The position numbers and the translations under genes are program-made. Of a DNA stretch of 64,000 nucleotides, positions 15,015 to 48,390 are shown piece after piece. Origin of the DNA: an uncultured Methanosarcinales archaeon. GTDB taxonomy: Archaea > Nanobdellota > Nanobdellia > Woesearchaeales > JACPBV01. The stretch covers positions 761 to 64,760 of the forward strand of contig CAZNZT010000008.1 of NCBI GenBank assembly GCA_964577685.1. Reading direction: 5' to 3'. Each line of letters begins with the position of its first letter. Within the stretch, counting starts at the first letter, position 1. The notes below the pieces were generated by a model. It saw only the letters and a program-made list of their open reading frames with translations, was not told where the DNA came from and searched no databases.

Positions 15015-17306
15015 ATGGCTTTATTTAATAAAAAACCATTTGATTATGAAGTAATAACCCAAGGAGAAGACAGAATTCTACAAATTAATTGCGAAAATTA
15101 TACAAGGGTTCCGTCTCTAGAAGATGACCCGCAAACAATGCAAAAAACATGTGATATAATAAACGAGGTTGGAAATATTACAAAGATTACTTATTCTCAA
15201 AAAAGAAACTATGAATATGACTATCCACAAGCGATTCTAATCCAAGAAATAGCAAATCTCTATAAAAGGTTAACAAAACAAAAAGAAATATTTAACTATA
15301 GTGCGTTCATTTACAATAAAGAGTGTACAAAATGTGTTGGAAAATGGTATGCCGATGTCCAAAATATAATATCTAACCTTCTAAGATCAGACCCTATTGG
15401 TGCTTATGTAGAACTAAAAAGAATCCTAAGAGAGGAGAATATAAGATTGCAAAAAGCAATTGATTCTAGATGTAAGTTATGCGAGAAAAATTATATGTCT
15501 ATTCTAACAACACTGATAAATCTTCTAGATAAAACAAAACTGATCACCATAGCCAAACCAAACATAGCAGGATATAAAATAGGTGATAGAAACATTTACA
15601 GACAAATATTCAGCCCAATAATAAAACCAGATTTTCTATTTACAAAATTGATGGCAAAATATCCTGATGAGGGGGAAGAATTAGACTCATACACAGTCGG
15701 TTCAACAGAGGTCACCATCTTCAAACTACCAGATACAATTCAATACCTCTACCACATAATCCCTCCAGAATTTAGATTAAATGAAGAAAAATATGAAATA
15801 CTAGACACAGCAAGAAAAATAATGGCTGAATATAAACCAAAAAAAAGCGAATTTGTAGATCCAGAGAGGATGAGGTCTGTTTTCTCTAATATCGGCCGTG
15901 ATTTAATAGAAGAGCTAGCTGAATTTAAAAAAATAAGGCTAAATGAAAAAGACATTAATGAATTAACAAATATATTAGTCCGTTATACAGTTGGTTTTGG
16001 TTTAATAGAAGTATTGCTTCAAGATGAAAAGATACAAGACATAACGATAAATTCCCCAATGGGCGAAATTCCAATATTTATAGTCCATGAAGAATTCGGA
16101 GACTGCAAAACAAACATAATCCCAACAATTCCAGAAGCAGATTCTTGGGCATCAAAACTCAGAATGCTTTCCGGAAGACCATTAGACGAAGCTAATCCTG
16201 TCTTAGACACAGAATTAATACTGCCTGGGGCTACAGCTAGGGTTGCTGCAATAACTTCTCCCTTAAACCCCACTGGATTAGCTTATGCCTTTCGCAGACA
16301 CAGAGCAAAGCCATGGACTTTGCCATTATTTATACATAATAGAATGATTAATCCATTAGCAGCAGGGATTCTTAGCTTTCTTATTGATGGTTCAAGAACA
16401 ATACTAATAGCAGGAACACGGTCAGCAGGAAAGACATCACTTCTTGGAGCCCTCCTTACAGAAATTATGCGAAAATATAGGATAATAACAATTGAAGACA
16501 CACTAGAACTCCCTGCTCCTGCATTAAGAAAACTAGGCTATAATATCCAACAAATGAAAGTAGCAGCATCAATGACCAGTGGAACAACAGAAGTTCCTGC
16601 AGATGAAGGAATAAGAACAACGTTAAGAATGGGAGACTCATGCCTAATCGTAGGAGAAGTTAGAAGTACCGAAGCAAGAGCACTGTACGAAGCAATGCGT
16701 GTTGGTGCATTAGCAAATGTAGTGGCAGGAACTATACATGGAGACTCTCCATACGGTGTATTTGACAGAGTAGTTAATGACTTAGAAGTACCAAGGACAT
16801 CATTCAAAGCTACAGACATAATAGTAGTAGCAAATCCTGTAAGGTCTGCTGATGGATTACACAGATGGAGAAGAGTAACACAAATAACAGAAGTAAGAAA
16901 ACATTGGGAAAACGACCCGCTACTCGAGAATGGATTCTCAGATATAATGAAATATAACAGCAAAAGTGACGAGCTACAACCCTCAGATGACTTAATAAAT
17001 GGAGAAAGTGAAATCATAAAATCAATAGCTGGCAATGTAAAAGAATGGGCTGGGAACTGGGATATGGTTTGGGACAATATACTGCTAAGAGCCAAAATAA
17101 AAGAAACATTAGTAAATCATGCAATCAAACACAATATGCTAGATATTCTAGAAGCCCCGTTTGTCATAGCATGCAACGATGAATTCCATAGAATAAGTGA
17201 CAAAATAAAGGAAGAAGCAGGTGTCTTGGACTCAAAGAGAATCTTTTTTGAATGGAATGAATGGCTAAGAAGAAGTCTAAAGAAAAAAAGATTTGAGATT
17301 AAATGA
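15015..17306 (+). CDS. Archaeal type IV pilus/archaellum-type secretion ATPase (FlaI/PilB/GspE/VirB11 superfamily) with a long N-terminal extension
   Basis: Walker A 'LIAGTRSAGKTSLLGAL'. Typical 'IITIEDTLEL' and 'LRMGDSCLIVGEVR' (Asp box and His box regions). Confidence 0.85.
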   Translation: MALFNKKPFDYEVITQGEDRILQINCENYTRVPSLEDDPQTMQKTCDIINEVGNITKITYSQKRNYEYDYPQAILIQEIANLYKRLTKQKEIFNYSAFIYNKECTKCVGKWYADVQNIISNLLRSDPIGAYVELKRILREENIRLQKAIDSRCKLCEKNYMSILTTLINLLDKTKLITIAKPNIAGYKIGDRNIYRQIFSPIIKPDFLFTKLMAKYPDEGEELDSYTVGSTEVTIFKLPDTIQYLYHIIPPEFRLNEEKYEILDTARKIMAEYKPKKSEFVDPERMRSVFSNIGRDLIEELAEFKKIRLNEKDINELTNILVRYTVGFGLIEVLLQDEKIQDITINSPMGEIPIFIVHEEFGDCKTNIIPTIPEADSWASKLRMLSGRPLDEANPVLDTELILPGATARVAAITSPLNPTGLAYAFRRHRAKPWTLPLFIHNRMINPLAAGILSFLIDGSRTILIAGTRSAGKTSLLGALLTEIMRKYRIITIEDTLELPAPALRKLGYNIQQMKVAASMTSGTTEVPADEGIRTTLRMGDSCLIVGEVRSTEARALYEAMRVGALANVVAGTIHGDSPYGVFDRVVNDLEVPRTSFKATDIIVVANPVRSADGLHRWRRVTQITEVRKHWENDPLLENGFSDIMKYNSKSDELQPSDDLINGESEIIKSIAGNVKEWAGNWDMVWDNILLRAKIKETLVNHAIKHNMLDILEAPFVIACNDEFHRISDKIKEEAGVLDSKRIFFEWNEWLRRSLKKKRFEIK

Positions 17307-19483
17307 CCAATGAAGAAATTGTGAGGGGATTAATAGAAAAATATAAGAAAAGGCTGCAAGAAGAATTAGGTACAAAAATAGAAAAAAAACAGGAGAAGAT
17401 TAGTTCTAGGGAATATCAAGAATTCAAAAAAGCATATATGCCTGCCAAATTAACACTATATGAAAAACTATGTAACTTCAGTGAAAAGCTAGTAAAAATA
17501 ACACCAGAAAAAAATAAAGCAAACAAACTAAAAGAAGCAATAAACATATGCCACCTAAATATAACACCAACTGGTGCAACCTCATTTGCAATTGTGATAC
17601 CATTTTTTATCATCTTATTTTCTTCACTTATTTCAATAATCTTTCTAGGTTCAATTTTTTTCCCATTTTTCTTTATTATCTTAGGAATATCAATAATAAA
17701 ACCACTAGGAAACATACCAATATTTCTTGCTAACAACTGGCGTTTAAAGGCATCAAACCAAATGGTTCTATGTATATTCTACGTGGTAACCTACATGAGA
17801 CACACATCCAATTTAGAATTAGCAATTCGTTTTGCTTCAGAGCACATAGCACCTCCATTAAGTCTAGACCTCAAAAAAGTCCTATGGGATGTTCAAACAC
17901 AAAGATATTCTACAATAAAAGACTCGTTAGAAGCATATCTGCAAACATGGAAAAACTGGAACAATGAATTCATAGAGTCATTTCATCTTATAGGGGCGTC
18001 ATTGTTGGAGGGAAATGAAGAAAAAAGATTAGCTACCCTAGATAAGTCATTAGATGTTATATTAAGTGAAACTTATGAAAAAATGCTACATTACGCTCAA
18101 AATCTGAAATCACCTATTACTATGTTACACATGTTAGGAATAATATTACCAATTCTAGGCCTGGTAATACTACCTTTAGTCGTAAGCTTTCTCTCAGAAG
18201 TAAGATGGTATTATATAGCCCTTTTGTATAACATAGCACTACCAATAACAGTTTATTATCTAGGAAAAACAATACTAACAAAAAGGCCATCTGGGTATGG
18301 AAACACGGATATTAGTGAGTACCCTCAATTCAGAAAATACAAAAACATTATAATAAGAATAGGAAAATCAGAGATAAGAATAAATCCATTGGTAATAAGT
18401 GGAATAGTATTTTCCTTACTCTTTATTATAGGTATATCACCAATAATACTTCATTTATTTATTGAAGACGAAACAAATATTGGGCTTGGAGAAATAGATG
18501 AGTCCTCTACCTGCCTAAGAGAATACTGCCTATTAGACTACAGAGAAATAAACGGGGAAACAAAAGGGCCCTTCGGTCTTGGTTCTTCCATACTTAGCTT
18601 ATTTGTCACGCTTGCCTTTGGAGTTGGTTTTGGCACTTATTTCAGACTTATCTCAAAAAACTTGCTACAAATAAGAAAAAAAACAGAAACCCTTGAACAA
18701 GAGTTTGCTTCTGGACTTTTTCAATTAGGAAATAGACTTAGTGATGGATTGCCTGCAGAAACCGTGTTTGAAAAAGTAGCAACAAGTATGAAAGGAACAA
18801 TTTCTGGAGATTTCTTTAGTCTAGTCAGTAGAAATATAAAAAAAATTGGTATGGGTGTTCCAGAAGCAATATTTCATCCAAAATATGGAGCCTTGGTATA
18901 TTTCCCCTCAAACCTAATAGAAAGCTCAATGAAGGTACTAATTGAATCAATAAAAAAAGGACCAAAGATAGCTGCAATTGCATTAATAAACATTTCAAGA
19001 TACGTAAGAGAGATGCACAAAGTAAATGAAAGATTACGAGACCTGATGGCAGATGTCATATCCTCAATGACATCCCAAATAAAATTTCTGACTCCTACTA
19101 TAGCAGGAATAGTAATAGGTATTACATCAATGGTAACAAGTATTTTAGGTAAACTCTCAATACAAATGAAGCAATTTAGTGCTCTGCAGACAGAGGGAAT
19201 AAGCAGCAGTAGTATGCTAGTAGGGCAGCTAGTCAGTGAAGGGGTCCCAACCTATTACTTTCAGATAGTAGTTGGTATTTATGTCATACAGATTACATAT
19301 ATACTAACTGTATTAGCAAACGGGATTCAAAATGGCACTGATAAACTCAACGAAAGATACATGCTAGGTAAAAACCTAACAAGATCTGCTCTACTATATT
19401 GCGTAATAGCTGCTATTATAATGCTAATATTCAATTTTATAGCAACAGCGATAGTCGGAGTCGGTACTATGGAGATAACTTAA
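17303..19483 (+). CDS. Polytopic membrane protein, FlaJ/TadC/GspF-like platform partner of the secretion ATPase
   Basis: Start overlaps the stop of the FlaI-like gene (ATGA). 726 aa with many TM helices and two cytoplasmic domains, the usual organisation of FlaJ/TadC. Confidence 0.7.
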   Translation: MTNEEIVRGLIEKYKKRLQEELGTKIEKKQEKISSREYQEFKKAYMPAKLTLYEKLCNFSEKLVKITPEKNKANKLKEAINICHLNITPTGATSFAIVIPFFIILFSSLISIIFLGSIFFPFFFIILGISIIKPLGNIPIFLANNWRLKASNQMVLCIFYVVTYMRHTSNLELAIRFASEHIAPPLSLDLKKVLWDVQTQRYSTIKDSLEAYLQTWKNWNNEFIESFHLIGASLLEGNEEKRLATLDKSLDVILSETYEKMLHYAQNLKSPITMLHMLGIILPILGLVILPLVVSFLSEVRWYYIALLYNIALPITVYYLGKTILTKRPSGYGNTDISEYPQFRKYKNIIIRIGKSEIRINPLVISGIVFSLLFIIGISPIILHLFIEDETNIGLGEIDESSTCLREYCLLDYREINGETKGPFGLGSSILSLFVTLAFGVGFGTYFRLISKNLLQIRKKTETLEQEFASGLFQLGNRLSDGLPAETVFEKVATSMKGTISGDFFSLVSRNIKKIGMGVPEAIFHPKYGALVYFPSNLIESSMKVLIESIKKGPKIAAIALINISRYVREMHKVNERLRDLMADVISSMTSQIKFLTPTIAGIVIGITSMVTSILGKLSIQMKQFSALQTEGISSSSMLVGQLVSEGVPTYYFQIVVGIYVIQITYILTVLANGIQNGTDKLNERYMLGKNLTRSALLYCVIAAIIMLIFNFIATAIVGVGTMEIT

Positions 19484-23311: not shown

Positions 23312-23653
23312 ATGGGAAGAGGTAGACCTCCAAAAAGCCAAATAAGACAGAATATTATTGAGATTTTATACTTCCTAAGAGAAGGATATGGATACAACAT
23401 TCATAGAATATACAACAAAATATTCCCTTCTGTCACGATGAGGGTGATATATTACCACCTCAAAAAAGGGTTAAACTTAGGTGAATTTAAAATAAAAAAA
23501 ATAGAAAAAGAAAAGGGGAACTTCTCATGGGGTTCTGAAGCTGAAAAAATTTATTATACGCTTGGAAAAGAAGCTAGACCAACCGGAAACCTAAGAGTTA
23601 AAGAGTTCCTTGAAAAAAATAAACCAGATCATCTTTCTTTTAACAAATTATAA
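23312..23653 (+). CDS. Winged helix-turn-helix DNA-binding protein (putative transcriptional regulator)
   Basis: 'IIEILYFLREGYGYNIHRIYNKIF...RVIYYHLKKGLNLGEF' fits a wHTH recognition helix plus wing. Convergent with, and 25 nt overlapping, the large Cys-rich gene. Confidence 0.45.
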   Translation: MGRGRPPKSQIRQNIIEILYFLREGYGYNIHRIYNKIFPSVTMRVIYYHLKKGLNLGEFKIKKIEKEKGNFSWGSEAEKIYYTLGKEARPTGNLRVKEFLEKNKPDHLSFNKL

Positions 23654-26600
23654 ACAAAAGAATGTTTATTTTCATTTCTTCTAATATAAGTAGTATCCTT
23701 ACATTCAATATTTATGCTTAAATCAGTAAAATTTAAAGGGATAGTTGTATTACAATAAAAAGCACCTATATCGAACTTATCAGACCCTTCACACTGACTA
23801 AATGAACCTTGCATCTTTTCAAAATGTTCTTTATCGCTTGAAAACCTACACTGCATATCATCATCAATATACATTATAAGAGTAACATTGCTAGTATTAT
23901 AATTCACAGCATAATTTGAATTCAATAAATCTCCATCGGCAGCAATAATATTTGGTGGTGTCAAATTGAAATACCTATGAAAAAGCTCCCTATTCCTACT
24001 AATACCCATATTAACTGACTTATTCATACTAAATGAAGTAGAATTGACCAAATATAACTTATATTTCCTCCTTTTGGGGGGATTATCTTTACACTTAAAA
24101 TACAACTTAAGATTATTACCAGAAAATGGAATTTCACCAGTACACTCATAGCTGCCTCCTAAAACAGGGCTTATCTTATAAGATGAAATTGGACATTCCA
24201 ATAGTCCTTGCATATAGGCATAATCCACATCATAATTACTATACCTACACTCTGATGGTTTATTTACATACAATTTAAGACTAACTTGCTTTGTATTCTT
24301 AGGTAAAATAGAATTATTCTCTGGAACTATTTTTAAAATAAGGGGTGGCTCTATATTAGCTGCCGTCCTATTAATGGTAAATTTTATAAAAAAATCCTCA
24401 GTATTCTCATTCCCTGCCATATCTTTGCACCTTACAAAAAAATAATAAGTATTTTGTTCAAAAGCAGAAAGTAAAATCCTAGACAACTCCTTGATATAAG
24501 GAAATAAATGAGAATATTTATTTACAATATTCATAACTATTGCAAAAAAGAAGTCAGCTGTGCTTAGTATGTCATTTCCTGTGAAATACTCGTATAAATC
24601 TAATTCATCCTCCAATGATGCCCTATAACTTCTATATGCAGCTTGCAAATCATCTATTATTCCGATTAAATCTACAATAGCTGTGATATTCAAATAATAG
24701 TACACCCTCTCTGGTATAACCAGACCTGCAGGCAACCTTATAGTCATATTATGAGTCAAACTAAATGTTGGCTTATCAAACCAAACAGATGGCAAAAACC
24801 GGTAGCTTATATTAGGTAAATAAGCCAACTTACATTTAGCTGGCTCGTTAGTTTTTATTCCAAATTTAAATGGCGCATATGGTTTAATGGCTGGTTCAAT
24901 CTCATAACCATCAATTGACTTATCTAGAATCTTCAACCTAGCCCTATAAGCCCTATACCCTGGGCTTAAGGCATCTGTATTAAAATCTATTTCTGGTTCT
25001 TCTTTGTCATCAGTATTAAATGGAAAACACCTACCAACACCATCAACCAGCTCAAACCTACAAAGCTGTCCTAAACTTTTACATTTATATTCCGTACATG
25101 GCTCCAAAGGATCCTCATCACATAAATAACAATCCTCACCCCCATAGGGGGCACTCCACAATGAACAAAAAGAATAGTCTAAGACCTTTATCTCGGGTGG
25201 TTCTTTAAAAGGATTAATAAAATCTGATATAGATAAATCTGAAATATAATCAAGATAATTAAAAGCAGCACTTAAAAGATAAGGTAATCTCTCCATGACC
25301 ATAGGAAATTCCACTTTTTTACTATCCCTCTTCCTCTTGTACAAATCAAGATGAAGTGGACTCCTACCTATTTCTGCTGGATTTTTATTTAATCCGTCTT
25401 GATGATAAACATAGTCTCTTACTGAATCGGTTGGATCAGAATTAAAAAAGCCTTCCTTTGTTAGTCTGTCTGCAATATTTCTATAATTACCACAATCCCC
25501 CTGAAAATAACAATACAATGCTGAATGGTCAACCCAGACATTAGGACAACTGAAATCATCACATAATGCATAATTTGTTGCTATATTACAAACCTCTTCT
25601 CCATTCCCTTCCCAAAATCTAAACCCTGGCGGAACCTTTGGGTAGCACCTAGATACATCACTATAGTCTATACCAGGGAGTGGTCTAAAAAGAAAATCTG
25701 ACCACTTACAATCTCTCACACTTGAATTTTCACAACATTCCCTTGTCTTACATAACCAGCAATCTTGCCACCTATTCGGTCTACACATGGCTTTACTTAA
25801 TCCATTTATATTCTTCTCCGTACATAATTCCTCTCTGAAATCTCTACATTCCTCAACATATTCCTTTCCATTAATGCACATATGTCTATAGTGTCTACCA
25901 CCAACATAATCCATCCCCCCATGCCCCCTCTTTGATTCCACTATACTATCATAAGCACACCATGACTCTCCATGTCTCCTTGGAGGGCCAGTAAACGACT
26001 TTGTCTCATGTTCATAAGTAGCTACACAATCCTTACAACCTCCATCTCCACATTCTCTATCGCCATAATCTAAACCGATTGCTGGACAGATACATTCTGT
26101 ATTAGGATTATAAGTCCCTCCTTTCTTCTCACACTCTTCTTTTGGTGCGTTCTTAAAACAAAATCCATCATAACTATTAAAACAACAACCATAAACCAGA
26201 CGAGTTTGCTCCAAATTGGGCAATAAGCTAACTGTATCCTCTCCCTGTAAAGCAAACAAAAATGAATAATTCTCTCTACCAATTATAGTTAATTTATAAA
26301 CTATGTCCGGGTAAGGCCTGTGTTTCTCAATCAATATATGGGCTCCATGTTTCATCATAAAATCATTCTGATCAAAAAATCCAAACTCTATTTCACTATT
26401 TACAATCTCGTTAGCAAGAGCATACAATTTTCCTAGAGGAATATCTATATTAGAACTAAACATACTTTGTTTTATCGTTGAACCAGCTTTCTTTAGTGTT
26501 ATAGGATAATCCAAGATTACTCTTACTTCTTCAACACCAATTCTGACCGTTACATTTAAAGTGCCAGTGTCTACTTTATAACCCTTTTCTCTGAAGACAT

Positions 26601-27000
26601 CAAGATTTATACAGCTCTCAAGCCCTTGCTTTATTCTATTCTGAAGCTCTTTTTCCATTTCTTGCCTTAAAAAAATAGCATTAACACAACCATGAGTATG
26701 TTGATTATAACAGAAGTACCTATATTTTTCATTGTAATACCAAACAAAATCTTTTTCTGATAAATTAAGAGTCCCTCCTTGTTCCATTAGAAGTTTAATA
26801 ATAGGATAGCTAACAATATCGATACAACTGATAACATATCTATCCAATGGCTTTTTCTCAAATCTCTTCTCATTTACTAACTCCGAATCCACCTTTACTC
26901 TTTCCAAAGAAACATTCCTGATATAATTAAGAGAAAAGAAAAATACCAACAATAGAACACCAACCAAAACAAAATAGCTTACCTGACCTCTTTTTTTCAT
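23629..27000 (-). CDS. Large (1123 aa) cysteine-rich, N-glycosylation-sequon-rich secreted/surface protein with an N-terminal signal anchor. Function unknown.
   Basis: N-terminus 'MKKRGQVSYFVLVGVLLLVFFFSL' is hydrophobic. The central ~350 aa is extremely Cys-rich (e.g. 'CICPAIGLDYGDRECGDGGCKDC', 'CWLCKTRECCENSSVRDC'). Many N-x-S/T sequons. No catalytic motif seen. Confidence 0.6.
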   Translation of the reverse strand: MKKRGQVSYFVLVGVLLLVFFFSLNYIRNVSLERVKVDSELVNEKRFEKKPLDRYVISCIDIVSYPIIKLLMEQGGTLNLSEKDFVWYYNEKYRYFCYNQHTHGCVNAIFLRQEMEKELQNRIKQGLESCINLDVFREKGYKVDTGTLNVTVRIGVEEVRVILDYPITLKKAGSTIKQSMFSSNIDIPLGKLYALANEIVNSEIEFGFFDQNDFMMKHGAHILIEKHRPYPDIVYKLTIIGRENYSFLFALQGEDTVSLLPNLEQTRLVYGCCFNSYDGFCFKNAPKEECEKKGGTYNPNTECICPAIGLDYGDRECGDGGCKDCVATYEHETKSFTGPPRRHGESWCAYDSIVESKRGHGGMDYVGGRHYRHMCINGKEYVEECRDFREELCTEKNINGLSKAMCRPNRWQDCWLCKTRECCENSSVRDCKWSDFLFRPLPGIDYSDVSRCYPKVPPGFRFWEGNGEEVCNIATNYALCDDFSCPNVWVDHSALYCYFQGDCGNYRNIADRLTKEGFFNSDPTDSVRDYVYHQDGLNKNPAEIGRSPLHLDLYKRKRDSKKVEFPMVMERLPYLLSAAFNYLDYISDLSISDFINPFKEPPEIKVLDYSFCSLWSAPYGGEDCYLCDEDPLEPCTEYKCKSLGQLCRFELVDGVGRCFPFNTDDKEEPEIDFNTDALSPGYRAYRARLKILDKSIDGYEIEPAIKPYAPFKFGIKTNEPAKCKLAYLPNISYRFLPSVWFDKPTFSLTHNMTIRLPAGLVIPERVYYYLNITAIVDLIGIIDDLQAAYRSYRASLEDELDLYEYFTGNDILSTADFFFAIVMNIVNKYSHLFPYIKELSRILLSAFEQNTYYFFVRCKDMAGNENTEDFFIKFTINRTAANIEPPLILKIVPENNSILPKNTKQVSLKLYVNKPSECRYSNYDVDYAYMQGLLECPISSYKISPVLGGSYECTGEIPFSGNNLKLYFKCKDNPPKRRKYKLYLVNSTSFSMNKSVNMGISRNRELFHRYFNLTPPNIIAADGDLLNSNYAVNYNTSNVTLIMYIDDDMQCRFSSDKEHFEKMQGSFSQCEGSDKFDIGAFYCNTTIPLNFTDLSINIECKDTTYIRRNENKHSFVYNLLKER

Positions 27001-27066
27001 TAAATGTAAAAGAAAATAATAAAGATATAAATTTTTTTGTTTTCATAGGATTAAAAACACAGAAAG

Positions 27067-29580: not shown

Positions 29581-31554
29581 ATGAAAAAATTTTTAATATT
29601 ATTATTCTTATTAATAATTCCTGTTATTTCTGCACAGGATTGGATTTATAACTCTGAGTCTTTAACAGTAGAGTTAGATATTTCTTCTTCTTTAAGACTG
29701 ATCCAAAAAAGCCCTGACTTTAGAGTAGAATATATCTCAGTAAATCTATCGCTTGTACCACAAGATTCATCCCAGCAAGAAGTTTTAGTGCTAAAAACAA
29801 ATCCTAAAGGAGAAAAAAAAGAAGGTGTAATAGAATTCAAATGGGATAAACCAGAAAAAGAATTACTTGAATTTAAAGTTAATTCTAGAATAATAAGCCT
29901 TAACGATATAATAAAACTAAAAGAAAAAATAAAATTCCCACTAACGGAAATACCAAAAGAAATAAAAAAATACACGCAGCCCTCTAAGACTATAGACTCA
30001 AACAATGAAAACATAATAAGGCTTGCTTCAAAATTAATAGAAGGAGAAGATGATTTATATTTTGTTGTCTTTAAATTAGCAGAATGGACTAAGGAAAATA
30101 TAAGATATGACCTCACAACCTCAACAGGACAAACAACACAAAAAGCATCCTGGGTTCTAGATAACAAAGAGGGAGTATGTGATGAACTGACAAATCTATT
30201 CATAGCCTTATGTAGAGCCCTTGGCATTCCTGCAAGATTTATTTCTGGAGTTTCATATACTAATGTTGAAAGTTCAAAAGAAGGCTGGGGACCACATGGT
30301 TGGGCTGAAGTCTATTTTCCAAAATATGGATGGGTCCCTTTTGATGTAACATATGGGCAATTTGGTTTTGTTGATGCTACGCATATAAAACTAAAAGAAA
30401 GTATGGACCCGGACGAACCATCTACAAGACTACAATGGTTTGGTTCAGACATAGAAGTAGAAATGTCAAAGTTAGAGATAAAAACAAAATTAATAGAAAA
30501 AAAGGGTAAAACACTAAAACCAATCTCTATAGAAGGAAAAGCAATCAGAAATAATATAGATTTTGGTTCTTATAATATCATAGAAGCAAAAGTAAAAAAC
30601 CTAAATGACTATTACATAAGTACAGATTTAACCATATCTAAACCAAAAGAAATAGAAGTGATAGACAAAGAAATAAAAACAATCGTATTAGAACCAAATG
30701 AAGAAAAAAAAATTTATTGGATTATAAAGGTAAATGAAAACTTAGAGGAGGAATATATCTATACATTTCCTATTATGATATACTCAACAAGAAATGTTAG
30801 TTCTATCACAAGATTTGACGCAAGAAAAGGTGAAAAAAAATTAGATTTAAAGTATATAGAAGAGATACTAGAAGAAGAAAAAGAAGAAAAAAACATCTCT
30901 AAAAACATAAAATTGGACTGTCAAACAAAAGAAAAAGAAATATATGAATATCAAACATCAAAAATAAAGTGTGAAATAGAAAACACAGGCAATACTTATA
31001 TAGAAAAATTAAATGTTTGCTTAGAAGAAGATTGCAAAGAAGTAGATTTAGGAATCACACAAAAGAAAGATTTAAACTTTAATTTCTCTCCAAAAAAAAT
31101 AGGAAAACAAGAAATAAAAATAACGGCAAAAAACAAAGACCTTATCAGATCTTCTAGTTTAGATATGACTGTATATGATACCCCTTCATTAGAGATTAGA
31201 AATATTACTTTCCCAAAGAAAGTAGCCTATAAAGGAGAATACAAAATATCCTTCATATTAAAAAAGAAATCTCAATACCCACCCTACAATATCACAATAA
31301 AACTTAGTCCATTTCTTAGTGAATGGAAACTTAGTCAGTTAAATGTTGATAGGCTCTTTAATATAAACTTCTATGGGAAAGAATTAGATATTGGAGAGAA
31401 CAAATTTATCTTAACAATAAACTATCAAGACAAAAATGGAAGGAAATATACTACAAACAAAAAGTTCATAATATCTCTTTCAGATGTAAATATAATGGAG
31501 AGGATTATCATATACTTAAAAAAGATTTTAAAGAAAACTTCAAAACTACTCTAG
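29581..31554 (+). CDS. Secreted transglutaminase-like cysteine protease domain protein with a C-terminal beta-rich (Ig-like?) extension
   Basis: Signal peptide 'MKKFLILLFLLIIPVISAQ'. Transglutaminase core 'GVCDELTNLFIALCRALGIPARFISG', 'HGWAEVYF', 'PFDVTYG' (Cys-His-Asp triad). Confidence 0.75.
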   Translation: MKKFLILLFLLIIPVISAQDWIYNSESLTVELDISSSLRLIQKSPDFRVEYISVNLSLVPQDSSQQEVLVLKTNPKGEKKEGVIEFKWDKPEKELLEFKVNSRIISLNDIIKLKEKIKFPLTEIPKEIKKYTQPSKTIDSNNENIIRLASKLIEGEDDLYFVVFKLAEWTKENIRYDLTTSTGQTTQKASWVLDNKEGVCDELTNLFIALCRALGIPARFISGVSYTNVESSKEGWGPHGWAEVYFPKYGWVPFDVTYGQFGFVDATHIKLKESMDPDEPSTRLQWFGSDIEVEMSKLEIKTKLIEKKGKTLKPISIEGKAIRNNIDFGSYNIIEAKVKNLNDYYISTDLTISKPKEIEVIDKEIKTIVLEPNEEKKIYWIIKVNENLEEEYIYTFPIMIYSTRNVSSITRFDARKGEKKLDLKYIEEILEEEKEEKNISKNIKLDCQTKEKEIYEYQTSKIKCEIENTGNTYIEKLNVCLEEDCKEVDLGITQKKDLNFNFSPKKIGKQEIKITAKNKDLIRSSSLDMTVYDTPSLEIRNITFPKKVAYKGEYKISFILKKKSQYPPYNITIKLSPFLSEWKLSQLNVDRLFNINFYGKELDIGENKFILTINYQDKNGRKYTTNKKFIISLSDVNIMERIIIYLKKILKKTSKLL

Positions 31555-32491: not shown

Positions 32492-32785
32492 ATGAAATAT
32501 ATAGAAGGCATTTTAAAAATAGCAAATCTATTTCTAGCGTTAGTTGCAGGGACTATAGCTATTAATCTTTTTAAAATTTTAAGTAGAAAGAAGGGTAAAA
32601 AGGAAATTATAGTATGGAAGCTCCTTGCTGTTGCTTTGATCTTTTTTGCTATGCAAATGGTTTTTGGAGCCCTAAGAGCATTTAGAATATTTGAAAGTCC
32701 TTATATAACCCATATTATACCCACAGTTATACTTACATTAATTATTATAGCTATTGTTTTTCAGATAAACATACACAAAAATTAA
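32492..32785 (+). CDS. Small 3-TM membrane protein (paralog of the next gene)
   Basis: 97 aa. Shares its architecture and the central 'KK..I..WKLLAVALIFFA' block with the 32787 ORF ('KPWKILFLAILVYIV'). Translationally coupled to it (1-nt gap). Confidence 0.4.
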   Translation: MKYIEGILKIANLFLALVAGTIAINLFKILSRKKGKKEIIVWKLLAVALIFFAMQMVFGALRAFRIFESPYITHIIPTVILTLIIIAIVFQINIHKN

Positions 32786-32786
32786 A

Positions 32787-33086
32787 ATGTCAAGCATAGG
32801 ATATTGTCTAGGTATTGTAGCACCTTATTATAATCTAGCACTCGTGATAATTGTCACTATTTTATTTCTGAGGCTGTTTAGCTTATCAAACAAAGGAGTG
32901 TATATAAAACCATGGAAAATATTATTCCTAGCAATCCTAGTATATATAGTAGAAGAAATAATAAACATTATGGAAACAGCAAATCTGATTACAGTATCAA
33001 GTCTTTTATTTCCTTTTCTTGAGATGATAATAATTAGTTTATTTATATATATGCTTCTCTTACAGAAAGAGCATACAAAAAAATGA
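32787..33086 (+). CDS. Small 3-TM membrane protein (paralog of the preceding gene)
   Basis: 99 aa, tandem duplicate. Its stop overlaps the start of the pilin-like gene. Confidence 0.4.
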   Translation: MSSIGYCLGIVAPYYNLALVIIVTILFLRLFSLSNKGVYIKPWKILFLAILVYIVEEIINIMETANLITVSSLLFPFLEMIIISLFIYMLLLQKEHTKK

Positions 33087-33337
33087 ATAAAAAAGCATTG
33101 TCTCCTCTAGTAGCAACGATACTATTAGTCTTATTTTCCCTAATAATAGGCACAATAACAATGAACTGGGGAAAAAGCTATGTTGAAAAAATAGAAGAAG
33201 AACCAAAAATAAGAGAAAGTGCCATAATCATAAGCATTAAAGACATTGATACACCGCTGAAGGAATTGCAAATTCAATATATAACAGGGAAAATAACAAA
33301 AGAAGAATATCTAAAAAAAGAAAAAGAGCTAATCTAA
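33083..33337 (+). CDS. Archaeal type IV pilin-like protein (class III signal peptide) fused to a C-terminal SHOCT-like motif
   Basis: N-terminus 'MNKKALSPLVATILLVLFSLIIG' matches the archaeal prepilin pattern (KK-[GA]-x-SP-[VIL]-[VI]-ATxLL, cleavage after the K/A). C-terminus 'ITGKITKEEYLKKEKELI' resembles SHOCT. Confidence 0.5.
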   Translation: MNKKALSPLVATILLVLFSLIIGTITMNWGKSYVEKIEEEPKIRESAIIISIKDIDTPLKELQIQYITGKITKEEYLKKEKELI

Positions 33338-38418: not shown

Positions 38419-39840
38419 CTAATTAGAAGAGTATCTCAAATCCGGATTTCTAGCAGCTCTAACAGCATCTAATCTACCAACTGGCATACTAAACGGAGCA
38501 TTATGTAATAGTTCTGGTTTATTCTCAGCCTCAGCCCTAATCTTCCCCATTACCCTGATAAAATAATCCAATGTTTCTTTGCTTTCAGTTTCAGTAGGTT
38601 CTATCATCATGGCTCCATGAACAATTAGCGGAAAATATATTGTCATAGGATGTATTCCATAATCAATCAATCTTTTGGCTATATCTGTGGTAGTAACACC
38701 ATTAGGTAAAGCTTCATCACTTAAGACAAATTCATGTTTACATAAGGAATTATAAGGAAGCACATAAACGTCCTTTAATTTCTCTTTTAGGTAGTTTGCA
38801 TTCAAAACAGCATTTTCTGCAACTTTTCTTAAACCATCCGAACCAACAGCCCTAATATAAGAATAGGCTTTCACCGTAACACCAAAATTACCATAAAAAG
38901 ACTTTACCTTCCCAATTGATTTGGGGTTATTAATAAGATTATATTTGCCTTCTTTAAATATAATCCTCGGATTAGGTAAAAATCTTTCTAAGGTCTTTAC
39001 AACACCTACTGGCCCAGAACCAGGACCCCCACCACCATGTGGAGTTGAAAAGGTTTTATGGAGATTTAGGTGGATAATATCTATTCCCATATCTGCTGGT
39101 TTCGTTACACCTAGAAGAGCATTCATATTTGCTCCATCCATATAAACTAGACTTCCATTTTTGTGCATAATCTTTGTTATTTCTAATATATGCTCTTCAA
39201 ATATACCCAAGGTGTTTGGTATTGTTAACATTATAGCTGCAACATCTTTGTTGATAATCTTTTTCAATTCATCCAAGTCAATTTGTCCTTTATCGTTACT
39301 TTTTAAGGTCATATTCCTAAAACCACACATAGTAGAAGATGCAGGATTTGTCCCATGAGAGCTATCTGGTGTGATTATTATTTTCCTGTCTTCCCCTTTT
39401 TCATTAAAATATGCTTTTATAATCATGAGTCCTGTTAATTCGCCATGTGCTCCTGCAGCAGGTTGTAAAGTGAAAGCGTCCATCCCAGTAATCTCACATA
39501 ACATATTCTCGAGTTCATACATCAATCGCAAACAACCCTGCGCATTCGGCTGTAATGGATGACACTCAACGAAGCCCTCTAATTTAGCAATATCTTCATT
39601 TATCTTAGGGTTATACTTCATAGTGCAAGAACCAAGTGGATAGAAACCATTATCAACCCCAAAATTTCTTCTTGACAACTCTATATAATGCCTTATCAAT
39701 GTTACCTCATCAACCTCTGGTAATTCTAATTCATCTCTTAAATTATCTTTACTTATTATACCATCTCTTTTAGGAACATCCAACTCTGGTAAAGAAACTC
39801 CTATCCTACCTGCTCTGCTTTTTTCAAATATCAATTGCAT
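38419..39840 (-). CDS. gcvPB: Glycine dehydrogenase (decarboxylating) subunit 2
   Basis: PLP-lysine region 'IIHLNLHKTFSTPHGGGGPG'. 473 aa. Confidence 0.9.
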   Translation of the reverse strand: MQLIFEKSRAGRIGVSLPELDVPKRDGIISKDNLRDELELPEVDEVTLIRHYIELSRRNFGVDNGFYPLGSCTMKYNPKINEDIAKLEGFVECHPLQPNAQGCLRLMYELENMLCEITGMDAFTLQPAAGAHGELTGLMIIKAYFNEKGEDRKIIITPDSSHGTNPASSTMCGFRNMTLKSNDKGQIDLDELKKIINKDVAAIMLTIPNTLGIFEEHILEITKIMHKNGSLVYMDGANMNALLGVTKPADMGIDIIHLNLHKTFSTPHGGGGPGSGPVGVVKTLERFLPNPRIIFKEGKYNLINNPKSIGKVKSFYGNFGVTVKAYSYIRAVGSDGLRKVAENAVLNANYLKEKLKDVYVLPYNSLCKHEFVLSDEALPNGVTTTDIAKRLIDYGIHPMTIYFPLIVHGAMMIEPTETESKETLDYFIRVMGKIRAEAENKPELLHNAPFSMPVGRLDAVRAARNPDLRYSSN

Positions 39841-41159
39841 TTTCTTATTATTTCAACAAGCCTGTCCATCTCCTCTTTTGTATTTAACTCGGTAACACAA
39901 AACAACAAACAATTATTTAGCTCTGGATAATAAACACCAATATCTAATCCCCCAAGTATACCACTATCCAAGAGCTTTTTACTAACAGTTTTAGCATCTT
40001 TTACCTTCACTAAAAACTCATTGTAAAATTCTTGTTCAAAAACTATACTACAACCTATTTCCTCCAATCTATCAGCCAAATAATGTGCCTTATATAAACA
40101 CAACTCAGCAAGTTTTCTTAACCCATTTTTTCCAAGAGCAGAAAGATAAACAGTAGCAGCCAAAGCACATAATGCCTCATTACTACATATATTTGAAGAG
40201 GCTCTCTCTCTTCTTATATGCTGTTCCCTAGCCTGTAAGGTCAGTATATATCCAATATTACCGTTTCCATCTGTTGTCTTACCAACTAACCTTCCAGGAA
40301 GCTGTCTTAGATATCTATGTTTTGTAGCCATAATACCCAAATATGGTCCTCCAAAGCTAACTGGATTACCAAGGCTTTGTCCTTCACCAACCACAATATC
40401 AGAATGCTCTCCAGGAGGTTTTAATATACCCAAAGAAGTTGGTTCAATAACACATACATTTAACAAACTTCCATTCCTATGTAGAATATCAGAGATTCCT
40501 CTAAGATTTTCTACACAACCAAAAAAATTAGGTTGCTGTAATAAAAGGGTGGCTGTCCTTTTGTTTATCTTTAATTTTAAATCATCTATAGAAGTTACTC
40601 CATCAGAATAATCCACTTCTACAAATTTAAGGTTATGTGCCCAACAGTAAGTTTTTACAACCTGTCTATAGTCTGGATGTATGGCTCTAGACACAAGTAT
40701 TTCATTTCTCTTTGTAATATTTGAAGCCATTATACAGCTCTCAGCCAAGGCTGTTGCACCGTCATATAATGAAGCATTTGAGACATCCATACCAAATAAA
40801 TTACATATCATTGTTTGATACTCGTATATAGCTTGCAATATCCCCTGAGACATCTCAGGCTGATATGGGGTGTAAGTAGTATAAAATTCACTTCTAGCTA
40901 CAATATGCTTCACAACAGAAGGGATAAAATGTTTATATGCACCAGCTCCAATAAAGTAAGAGAAATCTACTTTATTCATCTTACTTATCCCCTTCAACAA
41001 TTCAAATAATCCGACCTCAGACATAGAAGCTGGAATCTTTAGTTTATCCTTTAAAATAATCCTATCAGGTATATCCCTAAATAACTCGGATATGCTCTTT
41101 AATCCAATTTCTTTGAGCATTGCTTCTCTATCCTTATTAGTATTAGGAATAAAATCCAT
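39831..41159 (-). CDS. gcvPA: Glycine dehydrogenase (decarboxylating) subunit 1
   Basis: 'YTPYQPEMSQGILQAIYEYQTMICNLFGMDVSNASLYDGATA', typical of the GcvPA N-terminus. Overlaps gcvPB by 10 nt. Confidence 0.9.
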   Translation of the reverse strand: MDFIPNTNKDREAMLKEIGLKSISELFRDIPDRIILKDKLKIPASMSEVGLFELLKGISKMNKVDFSYFIGAGAYKHFIPSVVKHIVARSEFYTTYTPYQPEMSQGILQAIYEYQTMICNLFGMDVSNASLYDGATALAESCIMASNITKRNEILVSRAIHPDYRQVVKTYCWAHNLKFVEVDYSDGVTSIDDLKLKINKRTATLLLQQPNFFGCVENLRGISDILHRNGSLLNVCVIEPTSLGILKPPGEHSDIVVGEGQSLGNPVSFGGPYLGIMATKHRYLRQLPGRLVGKTTDGNGNIGYILTLQAREQHIRRERASSNICSNEALCALAATVYLSALGKNGLRKLAELCLYKAHYLADRLEEIGCSIVFEQEFYNEFLVKVKDAKTVSKKLLDSGILGGLDIGVYYPELNNCLLFCVTELNTKEEMDRLVEIIRKCN

Positions 41160-41172
41160 ATTACACCCAAGG

Positions 41173-41574
41173 TTATTTGTGCTCCTTTAAGAAATTTTCA
41201 TATTCTTCAGCACTCATTAGTCTTTCTATCTCTTCCTTATTCTCAATCTTTAACTTCACAATCCATCCTTTCCCGTATGGATCCTGATTGATAATTTCTG
41301 GCTTTTCTCCAAGTTCATTATTCACTTCTAAAACCTCTCCACTAACTGGAGAAAAAACATCTGAAACAGATTTTACACTTTCAATTGTAGCTATTTGTTT
41401 GCCCTGCTCTACTCTCTTACCTTTTTCTGGCAACTCAACAAACACAATATCTGTAAGTTGTTTCTGAGCAAAATCAGTTATGCCTACTATTCCTATATCC
41501 TGTTCTATCCTAATCCACTCATGCTCTTTTGTATACTTCAATTCTCTTGGATTTTCCATATTACCACCCCACAC
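41173..41574 (-). CDS. gcvH: Glycine cleavage system H protein
   Basis: Lipoyl-lysine block 'IATIESVKSVSDVFSPVSGEV'. Confidence 0.9.
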   Translation of the reverse strand: MWGGNMENPRELKYTKEHEWIRIEQDIGIVGITDFAQKQLTDIVFVELPEKGKRVEQGKQIATIESVKSVSDVFSPVSGEVLEVNNELGEKPEIINQDPYGKGWIVKLKIENKEEIERLMSAEEYENFLKEHK

Positions 41575-41589
41575 AAAACCACTCAGTTA

Positions 41590-42702
41590 TTATTTATTAA
41601 GTTTTCCTTTATACTTATAAAACGGTCTTTCAACAATCTTAGCTTTATGCAGTTCTCCCCTTATTTTAATCTCAATCAAACTCCCAACATCAGCTTCAGC
41701 AATATCAAGGATAGCTAAACCAATTGGTTTTTTAAAAGTAGGGGAAAACGTTCCTGAGGTGACTAATCCTATCTTTCTATTATTCTTAAAGACATCATAG
41801 TTAAATCTGGGAATGGCTTTGTCTAAAAGCTCAAACGGAACAACAATCCTTTTTAGATCCCTCTTGGCTTCCAAAAGTGCTTCCTTACCTATAAAATCCT
41901 TAGAAAAATCAACAACAAACCCTATTCCTGCTTCAAAAGGATTTATATTTTCATTAAGCTCATGCCCGTAGAGACTATAACAAGCCTCTATTCTTAATGT
42001 ATCTCTTGCTCCAAGGCCAACAGGTTTTAATCCTAAATCTTTTCCACACTTTAGAAGCCTATTCCACACATCAATGGCTCTCCCTGAGTTAAAATATATC
42101 TCAAACCCATCCTCAGCTGTATAGCCTGTTCTTGATATCACAAAATTTTCATTGAAAAAAAATTTTTCAATAAAATCAAATCTCTTCAACAAAGAAAAAT
42201 CAAAATCAAAACTATCATTGATTATCTGTTCAGAAAAAGGTCCTTGTAAATCTATCTTCGCTATGTTATTGCTTATATTAATAATAGTAACATCATCAAA
42301 AAAATCCTTATTCTTCATAAGCCAACCAAAGTCCTTGTCAACATTACTCGCGTTTACAACCAGCATAAATTTTTTATCATTAAATTTATAAACAAATAAA
42401 TCATCAATAACACCACCCATCGGATTGCATAAACAACAATAAAAAGACTTATTACAATCAAACTTACTTATGTCTCTTGTTACCATTTTTTGCAAAAAAT
42501 CATGAGCTCTCTCACCTTCAACAAGAATCTCACCCATATGGGAAACATCAAAGAGTCCTGCTTTATTTCTTGTTGTATTATGTTCTTCAATAATACTCGT
42601 ATAAGAAACAGGCATTAGCCATCCACCGAACTCTATAATTCTTGCTCCAAGTTTTAAATGTAAGTCGTACAGTGGTGTTTTCTTTAAATCAGGCATAAAC
42701 AA
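41590..42702 (-). CDS. gcvT: Aminomethyltransferase (glycine cleavage system T protein)
   Basis: 'KKTPLYDLHLKLGARIIEFGGWLMPVSY' N-terminus and GcvT folate-binding domain. Confidence 0.9.
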   Translation of the reverse strand: MFMPDLKKTPLYDLHLKLGARIIEFGGWLMPVSYTSIIEEHNTTRNKAGLFDVSHMGEILVEGERAHDFLQKMVTRDISKFDCNKSFYCCLCNPMGGVIDDLFVYKFNDKKFMLVVNASNVDKDFGWLMKNKDFFDDVTIINISNNIAKIDLQGPFSEQIINDSFDFDFSLLKRFDFIEKFFFNENFVISRTGYTAEDGFEIYFNSGRAIDVWNRLLKCGKDLGLKPVGLGARDTLRIEACYSLYGHELNENINPFEAGIGFVVDFSKDFIGKEALLEAKRDLKRIVVPFELLDKAIPRFNYDVFKNNRKIGLVTSGTFSPTFKKPIGLAILDIAEADVGSLIEIKIRGELHKAKIVERPFYKYKGKLNK

Positions 42703-48385: not shown

Positions 48386-48390
48386 TTTAG

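What the first reader, a model, noticed from the sequence alone, without database searches (positions are those of the whole stretch)
23629..27000. 1123-aa cysteine-rich, sequon-rich secreted protein
A single N-terminal hydrophobic anchor is followed by a domain with dozens of cysteines in irregular CxxC / CxC / CC spacings (positions ~270-520), then a long C-terminal region packed with N-x-S/T sequons. I recognise no enzymatic motif. It is a candidate major surface (S-layer-like or adhesin) glycoprotein. It is convergent with, and overlapped by, a wHTH regulator gene.
Basis: seen in the sequence. Interest (0 to 1): 0.55.

Follow-up and report, generated by a model that had tools for sequence, protein, structure and literature searches.

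The report
Pilin-signal, disulfide-rich archaeal surface protein
This gene encodes a large, disulfide-rich cell-surface protein of a tiny DPANN archaeon. It starts with a pilus-type export signal, and in related genomes it is split in two and sits in a cluster of pilin-like genes, so it is most likely a pilus-associated or membrane-tethered adhesin of a family nobody has described.

Summary
The ORF is real: 23629-27000 on the minus strand, 1123 aa. It has 46 Cys (4.1% against 1.1% in the other ORFs), 17 sequons (7.5 expected, p≈0.001) and one N-terminal hydrophobic segment.

The N-terminus is not a plain anchor. It is a conserved archaeal prepilin (class III) signal, K-[KR]-[GSA]|Q-[IV]-[TS]-x-F-I-I-x-G. 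This matches the KGQV/KGQI processing sites of Methanococcus EppA-cleaved pilins.

Variable cysteines are gained and lost in pairs across 208 homologues, which points to disulfides rather than metal sites.

AlphaFold models are confident (pLDDT 90-95). They show an α/β N-domain, a Cys-rich core and Ig-like β-sandwiches. The N-domain and core have no Pfam, NCBIfam, PDB or viral-structure match.

The family is large (1,722 cluster representatives at E≤1e-30). Among the labelled hits it is confined to Woesearchaeota and Nanoarchaeota, and no member is annotated.

In other Nanoarchaeia the protein is split into a ~255-aa prepilin-like N-domain protein and a translationally coupled ~1100-1350-aa Sec-exported body. 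These are followed by three or four small prepilin-like genes.

The window gene is therefore the fused form. It is best read as a pilus-tip or membrane-tethered adhesin, analogous to minor pilins plus PilY1. The S-layer reading is not supported. The function is inferred, not shown.

The parts
23629..27000 (-). Whole ORF, 1123 aa plus stop: the fused form of a DPANN prepilin-signal, Cys-rich surface protein family
26986..27000 (-). Leader MKKRG (aa 1-5), with the predicted prepilin-peptidase site G5|Q6
   Evidence: In 160 homologues, -2 is K/R in 94%; -1 is G in 49%, S in 28% and A in 22%; the Q at +1 is conserved in >=90% of 71 homologues. It matches the EppA sites KGQV/KGQI listed in PMC4371748.
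26908..26985 (-). Hydrophobic helix QVSYFVLVGVLLLVFFFSLNYIRNVS (aa 6-31), the H-domain of the class III signal
   Evidence: An hhalign comparison aligns it in register with the N-termini of co-operonic small pilin-like proteins.
26863..26907 (-). Variable, low-confidence linker (aa 32-46)
   Evidence: pLDDT is below 50. Length and sequence vary among homologues.
26215..26862 (-). α/β N-domain (aa 47-262), with the IEKHRPYPDIVY motif and Cys 59/97/105/130. It is a stand-alone ~255-aa protein in split-form relatives.
25411..26214 (-). Cys-rich core (aa 263-530), with 25 Cys. Conserved motifs are HGESWC, GGRHY (GSRHY in the family consensus), CRPNRW, PPGFRFWE and QGDCGNYRNI.
   Evidence: Foldseek against PDB and viral structures finds no match.
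25201..25410 (-). Poorly conserved linker ending in helix 568-587. The equivalent helix is strongly hydrophobic in split-form relatives.
25006..25200 (-). Small module with 7 invariant Cys (aa 601-665), of the form CxxWxAP...CxxC...CTEYKCKSLG
24361..25005 (-). First β-sandwich (aa 666-880), with an inserted helical bundle of about 85 aa (aa 764-848) that the split-form relatives lack
23632..24360 (-). Two or three further Ig-like β-sandwich domains (aa 881-1123). They carry 8 of the 17 sequons and the covarying Cys pairs 918-953, 1051-1100 and 1070-1083.
27025..27031 (-). TATA-like TTTATAT preceded by an A-run, 25-31 nt upstream of the ATG. This is a possible own promoter and a leaderless or short-leader mRNA (inference only).
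   Evidence: read by eye
23312..23653 (+). Convergent 113-aa gene overlapping the 3' end by 25 nt. It is a possible DNA-binding protein and is syntenic in 7 of 80 loci. Probably not part of the system.

Best explanation
The gene encodes the fused form of a two-subunit cell-surface module specific to DPANN archaea.

Inferred pathway. The precursor is inserted through the Sec pathway. A prepilin (class III) signal peptidase removes MKKRG, cutting between G5 and Q6. The remaining hydrophobic helix (aa 6-31) holds the protein in the membrane. That same helix is the element that can dock into a type IV pilus-like filament.

A flexible linker then carries a rigid ectodomain of about 120 kDa. The ectodomain has an α/β N-domain packed against a core stabilised by many disulfides, then a small Cys module, then three or four Ig-like β-sandwiches. 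These are probably N-glycosylated.

In related Nanoarchaeia the N-domain with its prepilin signal and the Cys-rich/Ig body are separate proteins. They are translationally coupled and are encoded next to three or four small prepilin-like proteins.

By analogy with bacterial minor pilins plus PilY1, and with modular pilins, I propose an adhesin. It would be displayed at the tip of a pilus, or tethered to the membrane like Sulfolobus bindosome proteins, and used to attach to partner cells or surfaces.

What is shown by computation: the signal pattern, the pairwise Cys covariation, the domain architecture, the fusion/fission, and the operon context of relatives.

What is inferred: cleavage, filament incorporation, glycosylation and the adhesive function.
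For: Signal. In 160 homologues, -3 is K in 72%, -2 is K/R in 94% and -1 is G/S/A in 99%. Position +2 is I/V, +3 is T/S, +5 is F in 90% and +9 is G in 92%, followed by about 22 uncharged residues; the Q at +1 is conserved in >=90% of 71 homologues. [quoted passage not shown] It also matches the EppA-type sites KGQV/KGQI/RAQI (PMC4371748). The motif is nearly exclusive to this family among 1180 neighbourhood ORFs. It is absent from the other 58 window ORFs.

Disulfides. 64 of 71 homologues have an even number of Cys. Variable Cys co-occur strictly in pairs, with phi 0.86-0.98 for seven pairs.

Structure. The full-length model has pLDDT 90.1 and pTM 0.82. The model of aa 47-665 has pLDDT 94.9 and pTM 0.92, which implies that the N-domain and core pack rigidly. 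The C-terminal β-sandwiches resemble tandem Ig/cadherin arrays. Homologues hit Big_13, DUF4625 and Y_Y_Y.

Fusion/fission. Stand-alone 253-258-aa N-domain proteins exist. In L083 and L084 they overlap the start of a ~1100-1216-aa protein with a Sec signal. Query aa 1-255 match the small protein and aa ~324-1119 match the large one. L078, L082 and L085 have the same arrangement.

Pilin cluster. The split operons continue with 3-4 small genes whose products start KQG|QLFGQPF.., KRG|IAPVFQYIF.., KKG|QIQMMETIMV.. and KKG|QTEIIGLLV... These are homologous across loci. Their leaders align with the family leader (hhalign E=3e-5).

Support from the organism and the literature. The window encodes a T2SSE-family ATPase and a classic prepilin-like ORF, so filament machinery exists in this organism. 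Makarova et al. 2016 (PMC4858521) describe large adhesin-like proteins and Cys-rich components in archaeal T4P loci.

Glycosylation and folding genes. A cassette of a GT-C-like gene (one member has a weak PMT_2 hit), a GT2 gene and a CxxC-protein gene recurs next to family members.
Against: No prepilin peptidase gene is in the window or in any of the 85 loci.

No T2SSE or platform gene lies within 10 kb of a family member in any locus other than the window. The proximity in the window (4 kb) is not conserved.

The small pilin-like genes of the split operons have no homologue in the 64-kb window.

Pfam Class_IIIsignal and Tad hits are not significant (E=2.6 and 0.14). Position +5 is F, not the E typical of EppA substrates.

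The AF2 model does not show a canonical pilin fold. The helix at aa 5-31 is separated from the N-domain by a disordered linker. Foldseek finds no pilin or PilY1 match.

No binding partner or ligand can be named. The conserved polar and aromatic residues could equally serve an enzyme active site.
Confidence: 0.55

Rival explanations
1. Membrane-tethered ectoprotein unrelated to any filament. The N-terminal helix, cleaved or not, simply anchors a binding protein or a novel ectoenzyme at the cell surface. The precedent is the Sulfolobus sugar-binding proteins, which use class III signals without being pilins.
For: A disordered linker separates the helix from the globular part, and there is no pilin fold. 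Fused-type genes are never next to pilin, ATPase or peptidase genes outside this window. Many polar and aromatic residues are invariant (R369, D387, N409, R410, D430, W347, W433), which would fit a catalytic or ligand-binding site. A secreted transglutaminase-like protein is syntenic with the gene.
Against: Split-form relatives sit in operons with 4-5 prepilin-like genes. The leader is shared with those genes. No enzyme family is detected by Pfam, NCBIfam, PDB sequence or Foldseek searches.
Confidence: 0.22
2. S-layer or major envelope glycoprotein forming the cell wall lattice.
For: The protein is large, secreted, enriched in sequons and carries Ig-like domains. GT2 and GT-C genes lie next to some paralogues. 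No S-layer protein of Woesearchaeota is known, so the role is vacant.
Against: There are 2-6 paralogues per genome and the sequence is strongly conserved, with about 40 invariant or near-invariant Cys. This is unlike the fast-evolving, Cys-poor archaeal S-layer proteins (my own knowledge). There is no C-terminal anchor or PGF-CTERM. The protein has a prepilin-type N-terminus, and its relatives sit in pilin clusters.
Confidence: 0.1
3. Metal-binding or redox Cys-rich protein (Fe-S, Zn or electron transfer) at the cell surface.
For: There are three CxxC, two CC and one CxC motifs, and 46 Cys in all.
Against: Cys are lost and gained in pairs, not in groups of three or four. Even Cys counts predominate. 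Few His are conserved, and no metal-domain family is hit.
Confidence: 0.03

Closest known systems
EppA-processed Epd pilins of Methanococcus maripaludis (archaeal class III signal peptides with Q at +1)
   Same: Short basic leader, G/A at -1, Q at +1, I/V at +2, and an H-domain after the cleavage site. The window has KRG|QV, against KGQV/KGQI in EpdB, EpdC and EpdE. TFF system 1 (Epd type) is reported in DPANN (bioRxiv 10.64898/2026.04.22.720090).
   Different: Position +5 is F rather than E, and S is frequent at -1. The mature protein is about 1100 aa rather than a small pilin. There is no significant match to Pfam PF04021. No EppA gene was seen.
Bacterial minor-pilin/PilY1 tip complexes, and the archaeal T4P-locus 'large adhesin' proteins (DUF2341) of Makarova et al. 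2016
   Same: Split-form relatives are encoded as a large secreted protein next to 4-5 small prepilin-like proteins. Multiple conserved cysteines occur, as noted for archaeal T4P components (PMC4858521).
   Different: No DUF2341 or PilY1 domain appears in the Pfam results. No propeller match stands out. In the window the pilin-like subunit and the body are one polypeptide, and the gene stands alone among housekeeping genes.
Modular type IV pilins (Streptococcus sanguinis PilB and PilC)
   Same: A prepilin signal and an N-terminal module are followed by grafted functional modules. These pilins were proposed to act in adhesion and, for PilC, to sit at the tip (abstracts of PMC8179133 and PMC9934059).
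   Different: The N-domain here is not a recognisable pilin fold. The graft is about 860 aa of unknown fold plus Ig-like domains. The protein is archaeal.
Sulfolobus bindosome substrate-binding proteins (class III signal on non-pilin proteins)
   Same: A class III signal leads directly, through a linker, into a large functional ectodomain (PMC4371748).
   Different: There is no solute-binding fold and no adjacent ABC transporter in the window. The leader is the Q+1 type rather than the PibD type.

Membership tests
Archaeal class III (prepilin-type) signal peptide proteins | G/A/S at -1 and a charged residue at -2 | tested here: met
   The window has R at -2 and G at -1. In the family, -2 is K/R in 94% and -1 is G/S/A in 99% of 160 sequences. 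The criteria are from PMC4371748.
Archaeal class III (prepilin-type) signal peptide proteins | The processing site precedes a hydrophobic H-domain of about 20 residues at the extreme N-terminus | tested here: met
   The leader is 3-10 residues long in most sequences. The median uncharged run after Q is 22 residues. AF2 predicts a helix at aa 5-31.
Archaeal class III (prepilin-type) signal peptide proteins | Actual cleavage by a PibD/FlaK/EppA peptidase, and presence of that peptidase in the genome | not testable with these tools
   The window ORFs scanned with Pfam gave no A24 peptidase hit, and a GxGD-motif regex on multi-TM ORFs of the window and loci found nothing. The rest of the genome is not available.
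EppA-type substrates (Epd pilins, Pfam PF04021 Class_IIIsignal) | Q at +1 | tested here: met
   Q6 is invariant or conserved in at least 90% of sequences.
EppA-type substrates (Epd pilins, Pfam PF04021 Class_IIIsignal) | E at +5 / QxSxE motif, and a significant match to PF04021 | tested here: not met
   Position +5 is F in 90% of sequences. PF04021 scores E=2.6, below its cutoff.
Type IV pilin (structural subunit) | A continuous long α1 helix packed on an antiparallel β-sheet globular domain | tested here: inconclusive
PilY1-like / DUF2341 pilus adhesins | A DUF2341 or PilY1 C-terminal domain | tested here: not met
   Neither domain appears in the Pfam results for the window protein or for 37 members. 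No convincing propeller match was found.
PilY1-like / DUF2341 pilus adhesins | Encoded together with minor pilin genes | tested here: inconclusive
   This holds for split-form relatives (L078, L082, L084, L085). It does not hold for the window gene or other fused-type loci.
Archaeal S-layer glycoprotein | A C-terminal membrane anchor (TM or PGF-CTERM) or another lattice-anchoring module | tested here: not met
   There is no hydrophobic segment outside aa 5-27, and the C-terminus ...YNLLKER is polar.
Archaeal S-layer glycoprotein | Dominant abundance and 2-D lattice formation | not testable with these tools
   This needs proteomics or cryo-ET.
Bacterial Ig-like domains (Big_13, DUF4625, Y_Y_Y) | A significant Pfam match in the C-terminal region | tested here: inconclusive
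   The window protein has no hit. Among 37 aligned members, 14 hit Big_13, 4 hit DUF4625 and 4 hit Y_Y_Y. AF2 shows β-sandwiches with weak Foldseek matches to tandem Ig/cadherin arrays (E~5e-4).

The most novel reading that the evidence does not exclude
The family would be the DPANN-specific host-contact device. In this reading a prepilin-anchored N-domain subunit carries a disulfide-locked body of a previously unseen fold at the tip of a type IV pilus-like filament. Woesearchaeota and Nanoarchaeota would use it to seize partner cells. Alternatively, through the internal hydrophobic, Gly/Ala-flanked segment seen in the split forms, it would perturb or bridge the partner's membrane. The window gene would be the single-chain version of this device.
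Probability: 0.2. Interest if true: 0.8.

Novelty: new variant of a known kind. Interest (0 to 1): 0.58.

Why it matters
[quoted passage not shown] The molecules that make that contact in Woesearchaeota are, to my knowledge, unknown.

This family is large: 1,722 cluster representatives at E≤1e-30, and 555 matching stretches in the genomes of GTDB species representatives. It is lineage-restricted, multi-copy and wholly unannotated. It has a confident predicted structure whose N-domain and Cys-rich core match nothing solved.

Linking it to prepilin-type export and to pilin-like operons gives a concrete, testable candidate for an attachment apparatus. The split/fused pair also tells experimenters which two proteins should bind each other.

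It also extends Q+1 (EppA-like) prepilin signals to very large proteins in DPANN.

Tried and rejected
Sequence searches. Pfam and NCBIfam scans of the protein gave only sub-threshold noise. PDB sequence searches with the single protein and with the 71-sequence profile gave only coiled-coil noise.

Viral origin was rejected. There are no relatives in 2.9 M viral contigs, and the gene lies in conserved housekeeping synteny.

Metal-cluster reading was rejected on pairwise Cys covariation.

Linkage to T4P machinery was tested. The window's ATPase and platform ORFs have no homologue within 10 kb of any other family member. A regex search for prepilin peptidase in all loci found nothing.

Homology between the N-domain and the small co-operonic pilin-like proteins was tested by hhalign. 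Only the leader and helix align.

A single-sequence search with the N-domain alone returned almost nothing. The profile search was needed to find the stand-alone forms.

A look-up of the contig carrying the identical protein failed, so the organism is inferred only from the labels on homologues.

Lipoprotein reading: LGT genes are often nearby. By eye the protein has no lipobox, and its first Cys is residue 59, inside a helix.
Full report
**Observation.**
The window carries an uninterrupted ORF on the minus strand at 23629-27000, encoding 1123 aa. It has 46 cysteines (4.1%, against 1.1% in the other ORFs of the window). Twenty-five of them lie in aa 270-520 and seven in aa 612-658. It has 17 N-x-S/T sequons against 7.5 expected from shuffles (p≈0.001). 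Twelve of these lie in the last 424 residues (p≈0.0007). Only one segment, aa 5-27, is hydrophobic enough for a membrane helix. A 113-aa ORF at 23312-23653 (+) converges on the gene and overlaps it by 25 nt. Only the 'wHTH regulator' label for the small gene is weakly supported: it has no Pfam hit and a Rex match at E=0.008.

**A large, unannotated, lineage-restricted family.**
Neither Pfam nor NCBIfam recognises the protein, and no PDB sequence does. It nevertheless has many relatives:
- 115 word-index homologues, most of them full length.
- With a 71-sequence profile, 12,082 representatives at E≤1e-3 and 1,722 at E≤1e-30 out of 1.84 billion.
- 555 matching stretches in the genomes of GTDB species representatives.

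Nearly all of the best 80 genome hits are labelled Woesearchaeota, Nanoarchaeota or Nanobdellota. A set of TPA MAGs labelled 'uncultured Methanosarcinales' and one 'Acidobacteriota' contig are probably mislabelled or mis-binned. Several MAGs carry 2-6 paralogues. No relative occurs in 2.9 M viral contigs.

**The N-terminus is a prepilin-type signal.**
Across 160 homologues the N-terminus reads K-[KR]-[GSA]-Q-[IV]-[TS]-x-F-I-I-x-G, followed by about 22 uncharged residues. Position -2 is K/R in 94%. Position -1 is G in 49%, S in 28% and A in 22%. Position +5 is F in 90% and +9 is G in 92%.

[quoted passage not shown] It lists the EppA-cleaved Methanococcus pilins with sites KGQV, KGQI, KGQL and RAQI, and notes that Q at +1 is required by EppA (PMC4371748). 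The window protein has KRG|QV.

The pattern is almost exclusive to this family among 1180 ORFs of the fetched neighbourhoods. It is absent from the other ORFs of the window. Two caveats apply. Position +5 is F, not E. The Pfam matches to Class_IIIsignal (E=2.6) and Tad (E=0.14) are not significant.

**Disulfides, not metal sites.**
About 40 Cys columns are invariant or nearly so. Sixty-four of 71 homologues have an even number of Cys. In a 208-sequence alignment the variable cysteines appear and disappear strictly in pairs:

| Cys pair | phi |
|---|---|
| 417-422 | 0.98 |
| 918-953 | 0.95 |
| 97-105 | 0.92 |
| 480-485 | 0.91 |
| 1070-1083 | 0.90 |
| 1051-1100 | 0.87 |
| 317-322 | 0.86 |

. This is the signature of disulfide bonds and so of an extracytoplasmic protein.

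**Architecture.**
The full-length AlphaFold2 model has pLDDT 90.1 and pTM 0.82. The model of aa 47-665 has pLDDT 94.9 and pTM 0.92. Together they give this layout:

| Residues | Element |
|---|---|
| 5-31 | helix |
| 32-46 | disordered, variable linker |
| 47-262 | α/β N-domain |
| 263-530 | Cys-rich core |
| 531-600 | poorly conserved stretch ending in a helix |
| 601-665 | module with seven Cys |
| 666-880 | β-sandwich with an inserted helical bundle of about 85 aa |
| 881-1123 | further β-sandwiches |

**Fusion and fission.**
A profile of the N-domain retrieves stand-alone proteins of 253-258 aa. Each consists of the same prepilin-like N-terminus plus the N-domain. In loci L083, L084 and L085 the small gene overlaps the start of a ~1080-1216-aa gene. 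L078 and L082 have the same small-then-large gene order, with large genes of up to 1353 aa. The large product has an ordinary Sec signal, extra Cys-rich repeats, the same Cys-rich core motifs (GESWC, GSRHY, CRPNRW, PPGFRFWE, GDCG), the CxxWxAP/CTEYxCKSLG module and the Ig-like domains. The pair is often duplicated in tandem. Query aa 1-255 align to the small protein (E 1e-20 to 1e-35). Query aa ~324-1119 align to the large one (E 1e-18 to 1e-31). The window gene is thus the fused form, which argues that the two parts work as one complex.

**A pilin-like operon in the split forms.**
Downstream of the pairs, and mostly overlapping by a few bases, lie three or four small genes. Their products begin:
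- MKQG|QLFGQPFVVILALILG (156-164 aa)
- KRG|IAPVFQYIFVAIAG (292-354 aa)
- KKG|QIQMMETIMVLIVV (163-196 aa)
- KKG|QTEIIGLLVIVVL (164-187 aa)

. These sets are homologous between loci. The leader and helix of one set aligns in register with the family's leader (hhalign E=3e-5). No similarity extends into the globular parts.

This layout, several small prepilin-like proteins next to a large secreted protein, matches bacterial minor pilins with PilY1. It also matches the archaeal T4P loci with 'large adhesin' proteins described by Makarova et al. 2016. Those authors noted that components of some of these archaeal systems carry multiple conserved cysteines (PMC4858521). A 2026 preprint reports Epd-type (system 1) filament machineries in DPANN.

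**Context of the window gene.**
The fused-type genes are not in such operons. Three recurrent contexts appear:
1. The window's own subfamily lies beside RNase HII, an S30AE-like gene and a secreted transglutaminase-like protein. The small convergent gene and a Trm14-like methyltransferase lie on the other side. This looks like local synteny.
2. A second subfamily lies beside GT2 genes, two multi-pass membrane proteins of about 490 aa and a membrane-anchored CxxC protein. The homologue of the membrane proteins in L084 has a weak PMT_2 hit.
3. A third, shorter subfamily lies beside a CARDB/Cys-rich membrane protein, LGT, a radical-SAM enzyme and an ABC ATPase.

The GT-C/GT2/CxxC cassette also occurs near split-type operons. 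This fits a glycosylated, oxidatively folded product.

The window does encode a T2SSE-family ATPase (15015-17306), followed by a 726-aa ORF with no Pfam hit, 4 kb from the gene. It also has a classic prepilin-like 84-aa ORF (33083-33337). This proximity is not conserved elsewhere. No prepilin peptidase was found in the window or the loci. The small pilin-like genes of the split operons have no homologue in the window.

**Interpretation.**
The best-supported reading is a prepilin-signal surface protein. Its hydrophobic N-terminal helix, after cleavage at G5|Q6, either tethers it to the membrane or docks it at the tip of a type IV pilus-like filament. It displays a rigid, disulfide-locked, probably glycosylated ectodomain that acts in adhesion.

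- **Shown computationally:** the signal pattern, the disulfide covariation, the architecture, the fusion/fission, and the pilin-like operon of relatives.
- **Inferred:** cleavage, filament incorporation, glycosylation and adhesion.
- **Main rival (0.22):** a purely membrane-tethered binding protein or novel ectoenzyme.
- **Other rivals:** an S-layer role (0.1) and a metal or redox role (0.03) fit the data poorly.

**Novelty.**
The kind of system is known: prepilin-type export of large adhesive proteins, and minor-pilin/adhesin clusters. This family differs in several ways. It has no sequence or detectable fold relationship to PilY1, DUF2341 or known pilins. It is restricted to DPANN. It is unannotated. 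It occurs in both fused and split forms. I therefore class it as a new variant of a known kind, with moderate to good interest. It gives a concrete candidate for the unknown cell-contact apparatus of Woesearchaeota.

Noticed in passing
window 15015-19483 (+): A T2SSE-family secretion ATPase (763 aa, Pfam E=1.8e-14) overlaps by 4 nt a 726-aa ORF that has no Pfam hit. The second ORF may be the filament platform protein. Neither has a homologue near other family members.
   Followed up: partly
window 32492-33337 (+): Three consecutive small hydrophobic ORFs of 97, 99 and 84 aa. The last starts MNKKA|LSPLVATILLV, a classic archaeal (PibD/FlaK-type) prepilin N-terminus. This organism therefore has two kinds of class III-like signals.
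   Followed up: partly
window 29581-31554 (+): A 657-aa secreted protein with a transglutaminase core (E=8e-28) and a weak CARDB match. It is syntenic with the family gene in 6 loci (window, L007, L012, L013, L016, L040), separated from it by RNase HII and an S30AE-like gene.
   Followed up: partly
window 44122-44901 (-); L003, L005, L008, L010, L031, L070 and others: Homologues of prolipoprotein diacylglyceryl transferase (LGT, E=1.6e-46 in the window) lie within 6 kb of family members in 16 of 80 loci, across different subfamilies. The family proteins themselves have no lipobox. The role of LGT in these archaea is unexplained.
   Followed up: partly
L001 3537-9997, L009, L020, L025, L044, L084 1155-4458: A recurrent cassette of a GT-C-like protein, a GT2 and a membrane-anchored protein of about 240 aa. 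The L084 GT-C-like member has a weak PMT_2 hit. The ~240-aa protein has CRKC...YPC motifs and may be a thioredoxin-like oxidoreductase. The cassette lies beside both fused-type and split-type family members.
   Followed up: partly
P0097-P0113 (split-type large subunits), about 30 aa upstream of the CxxWxAP motif; window aa 568-587 (nt 25240-25299): Split-type large proteins carry an internal hydrophobic segment, often preceded by a Gly/Ala-rich linker. Its KD19 is mostly 1.3-2.5 and reaches 3.55 in P0113. The homologous helix in the window protein is not hydrophobic. It is unknown whether this is a buried helix or a membrane-active element.
   Followed up: partly
L038 64-1083, L031, and the c2 cluster (e.g. 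L071 13125-14183): The shorter paralogues (about 870-1000 aa) are preceded on the same strand by a protein of about 350 aa. It has a cytoplasmic helical N-terminus, one TM, a CARDB-like domain and a Cys-rich tail. Sometimes a 340-aa Cys/Asp-rich repeat protein is also present. Together they suggest a multi-protein Cys-rich surface assembly.
   Followed up: no
window 38419-42702 and 46088-56502 (-): By eye these look like a glycine-cleavage operon and a full branched-chain amino-acid and leucine biosynthesis cluster (ilvB/N/C/D, leuA/B/C/D). That would be unusual for a reduced DPANN genome. Not checked with any tool.
   Followed up: no
window 23312-23653 (+): The convergent 113-aa protein starts with an AT-hook-like GRGRPPK. 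It is about 50% identical by eye (MAFFT) to the gene in the same position in L003. It has no Pfam family, and its best PDB sequence hit is Rex residues 46-110 (E=0.008).
   Followed up: partly
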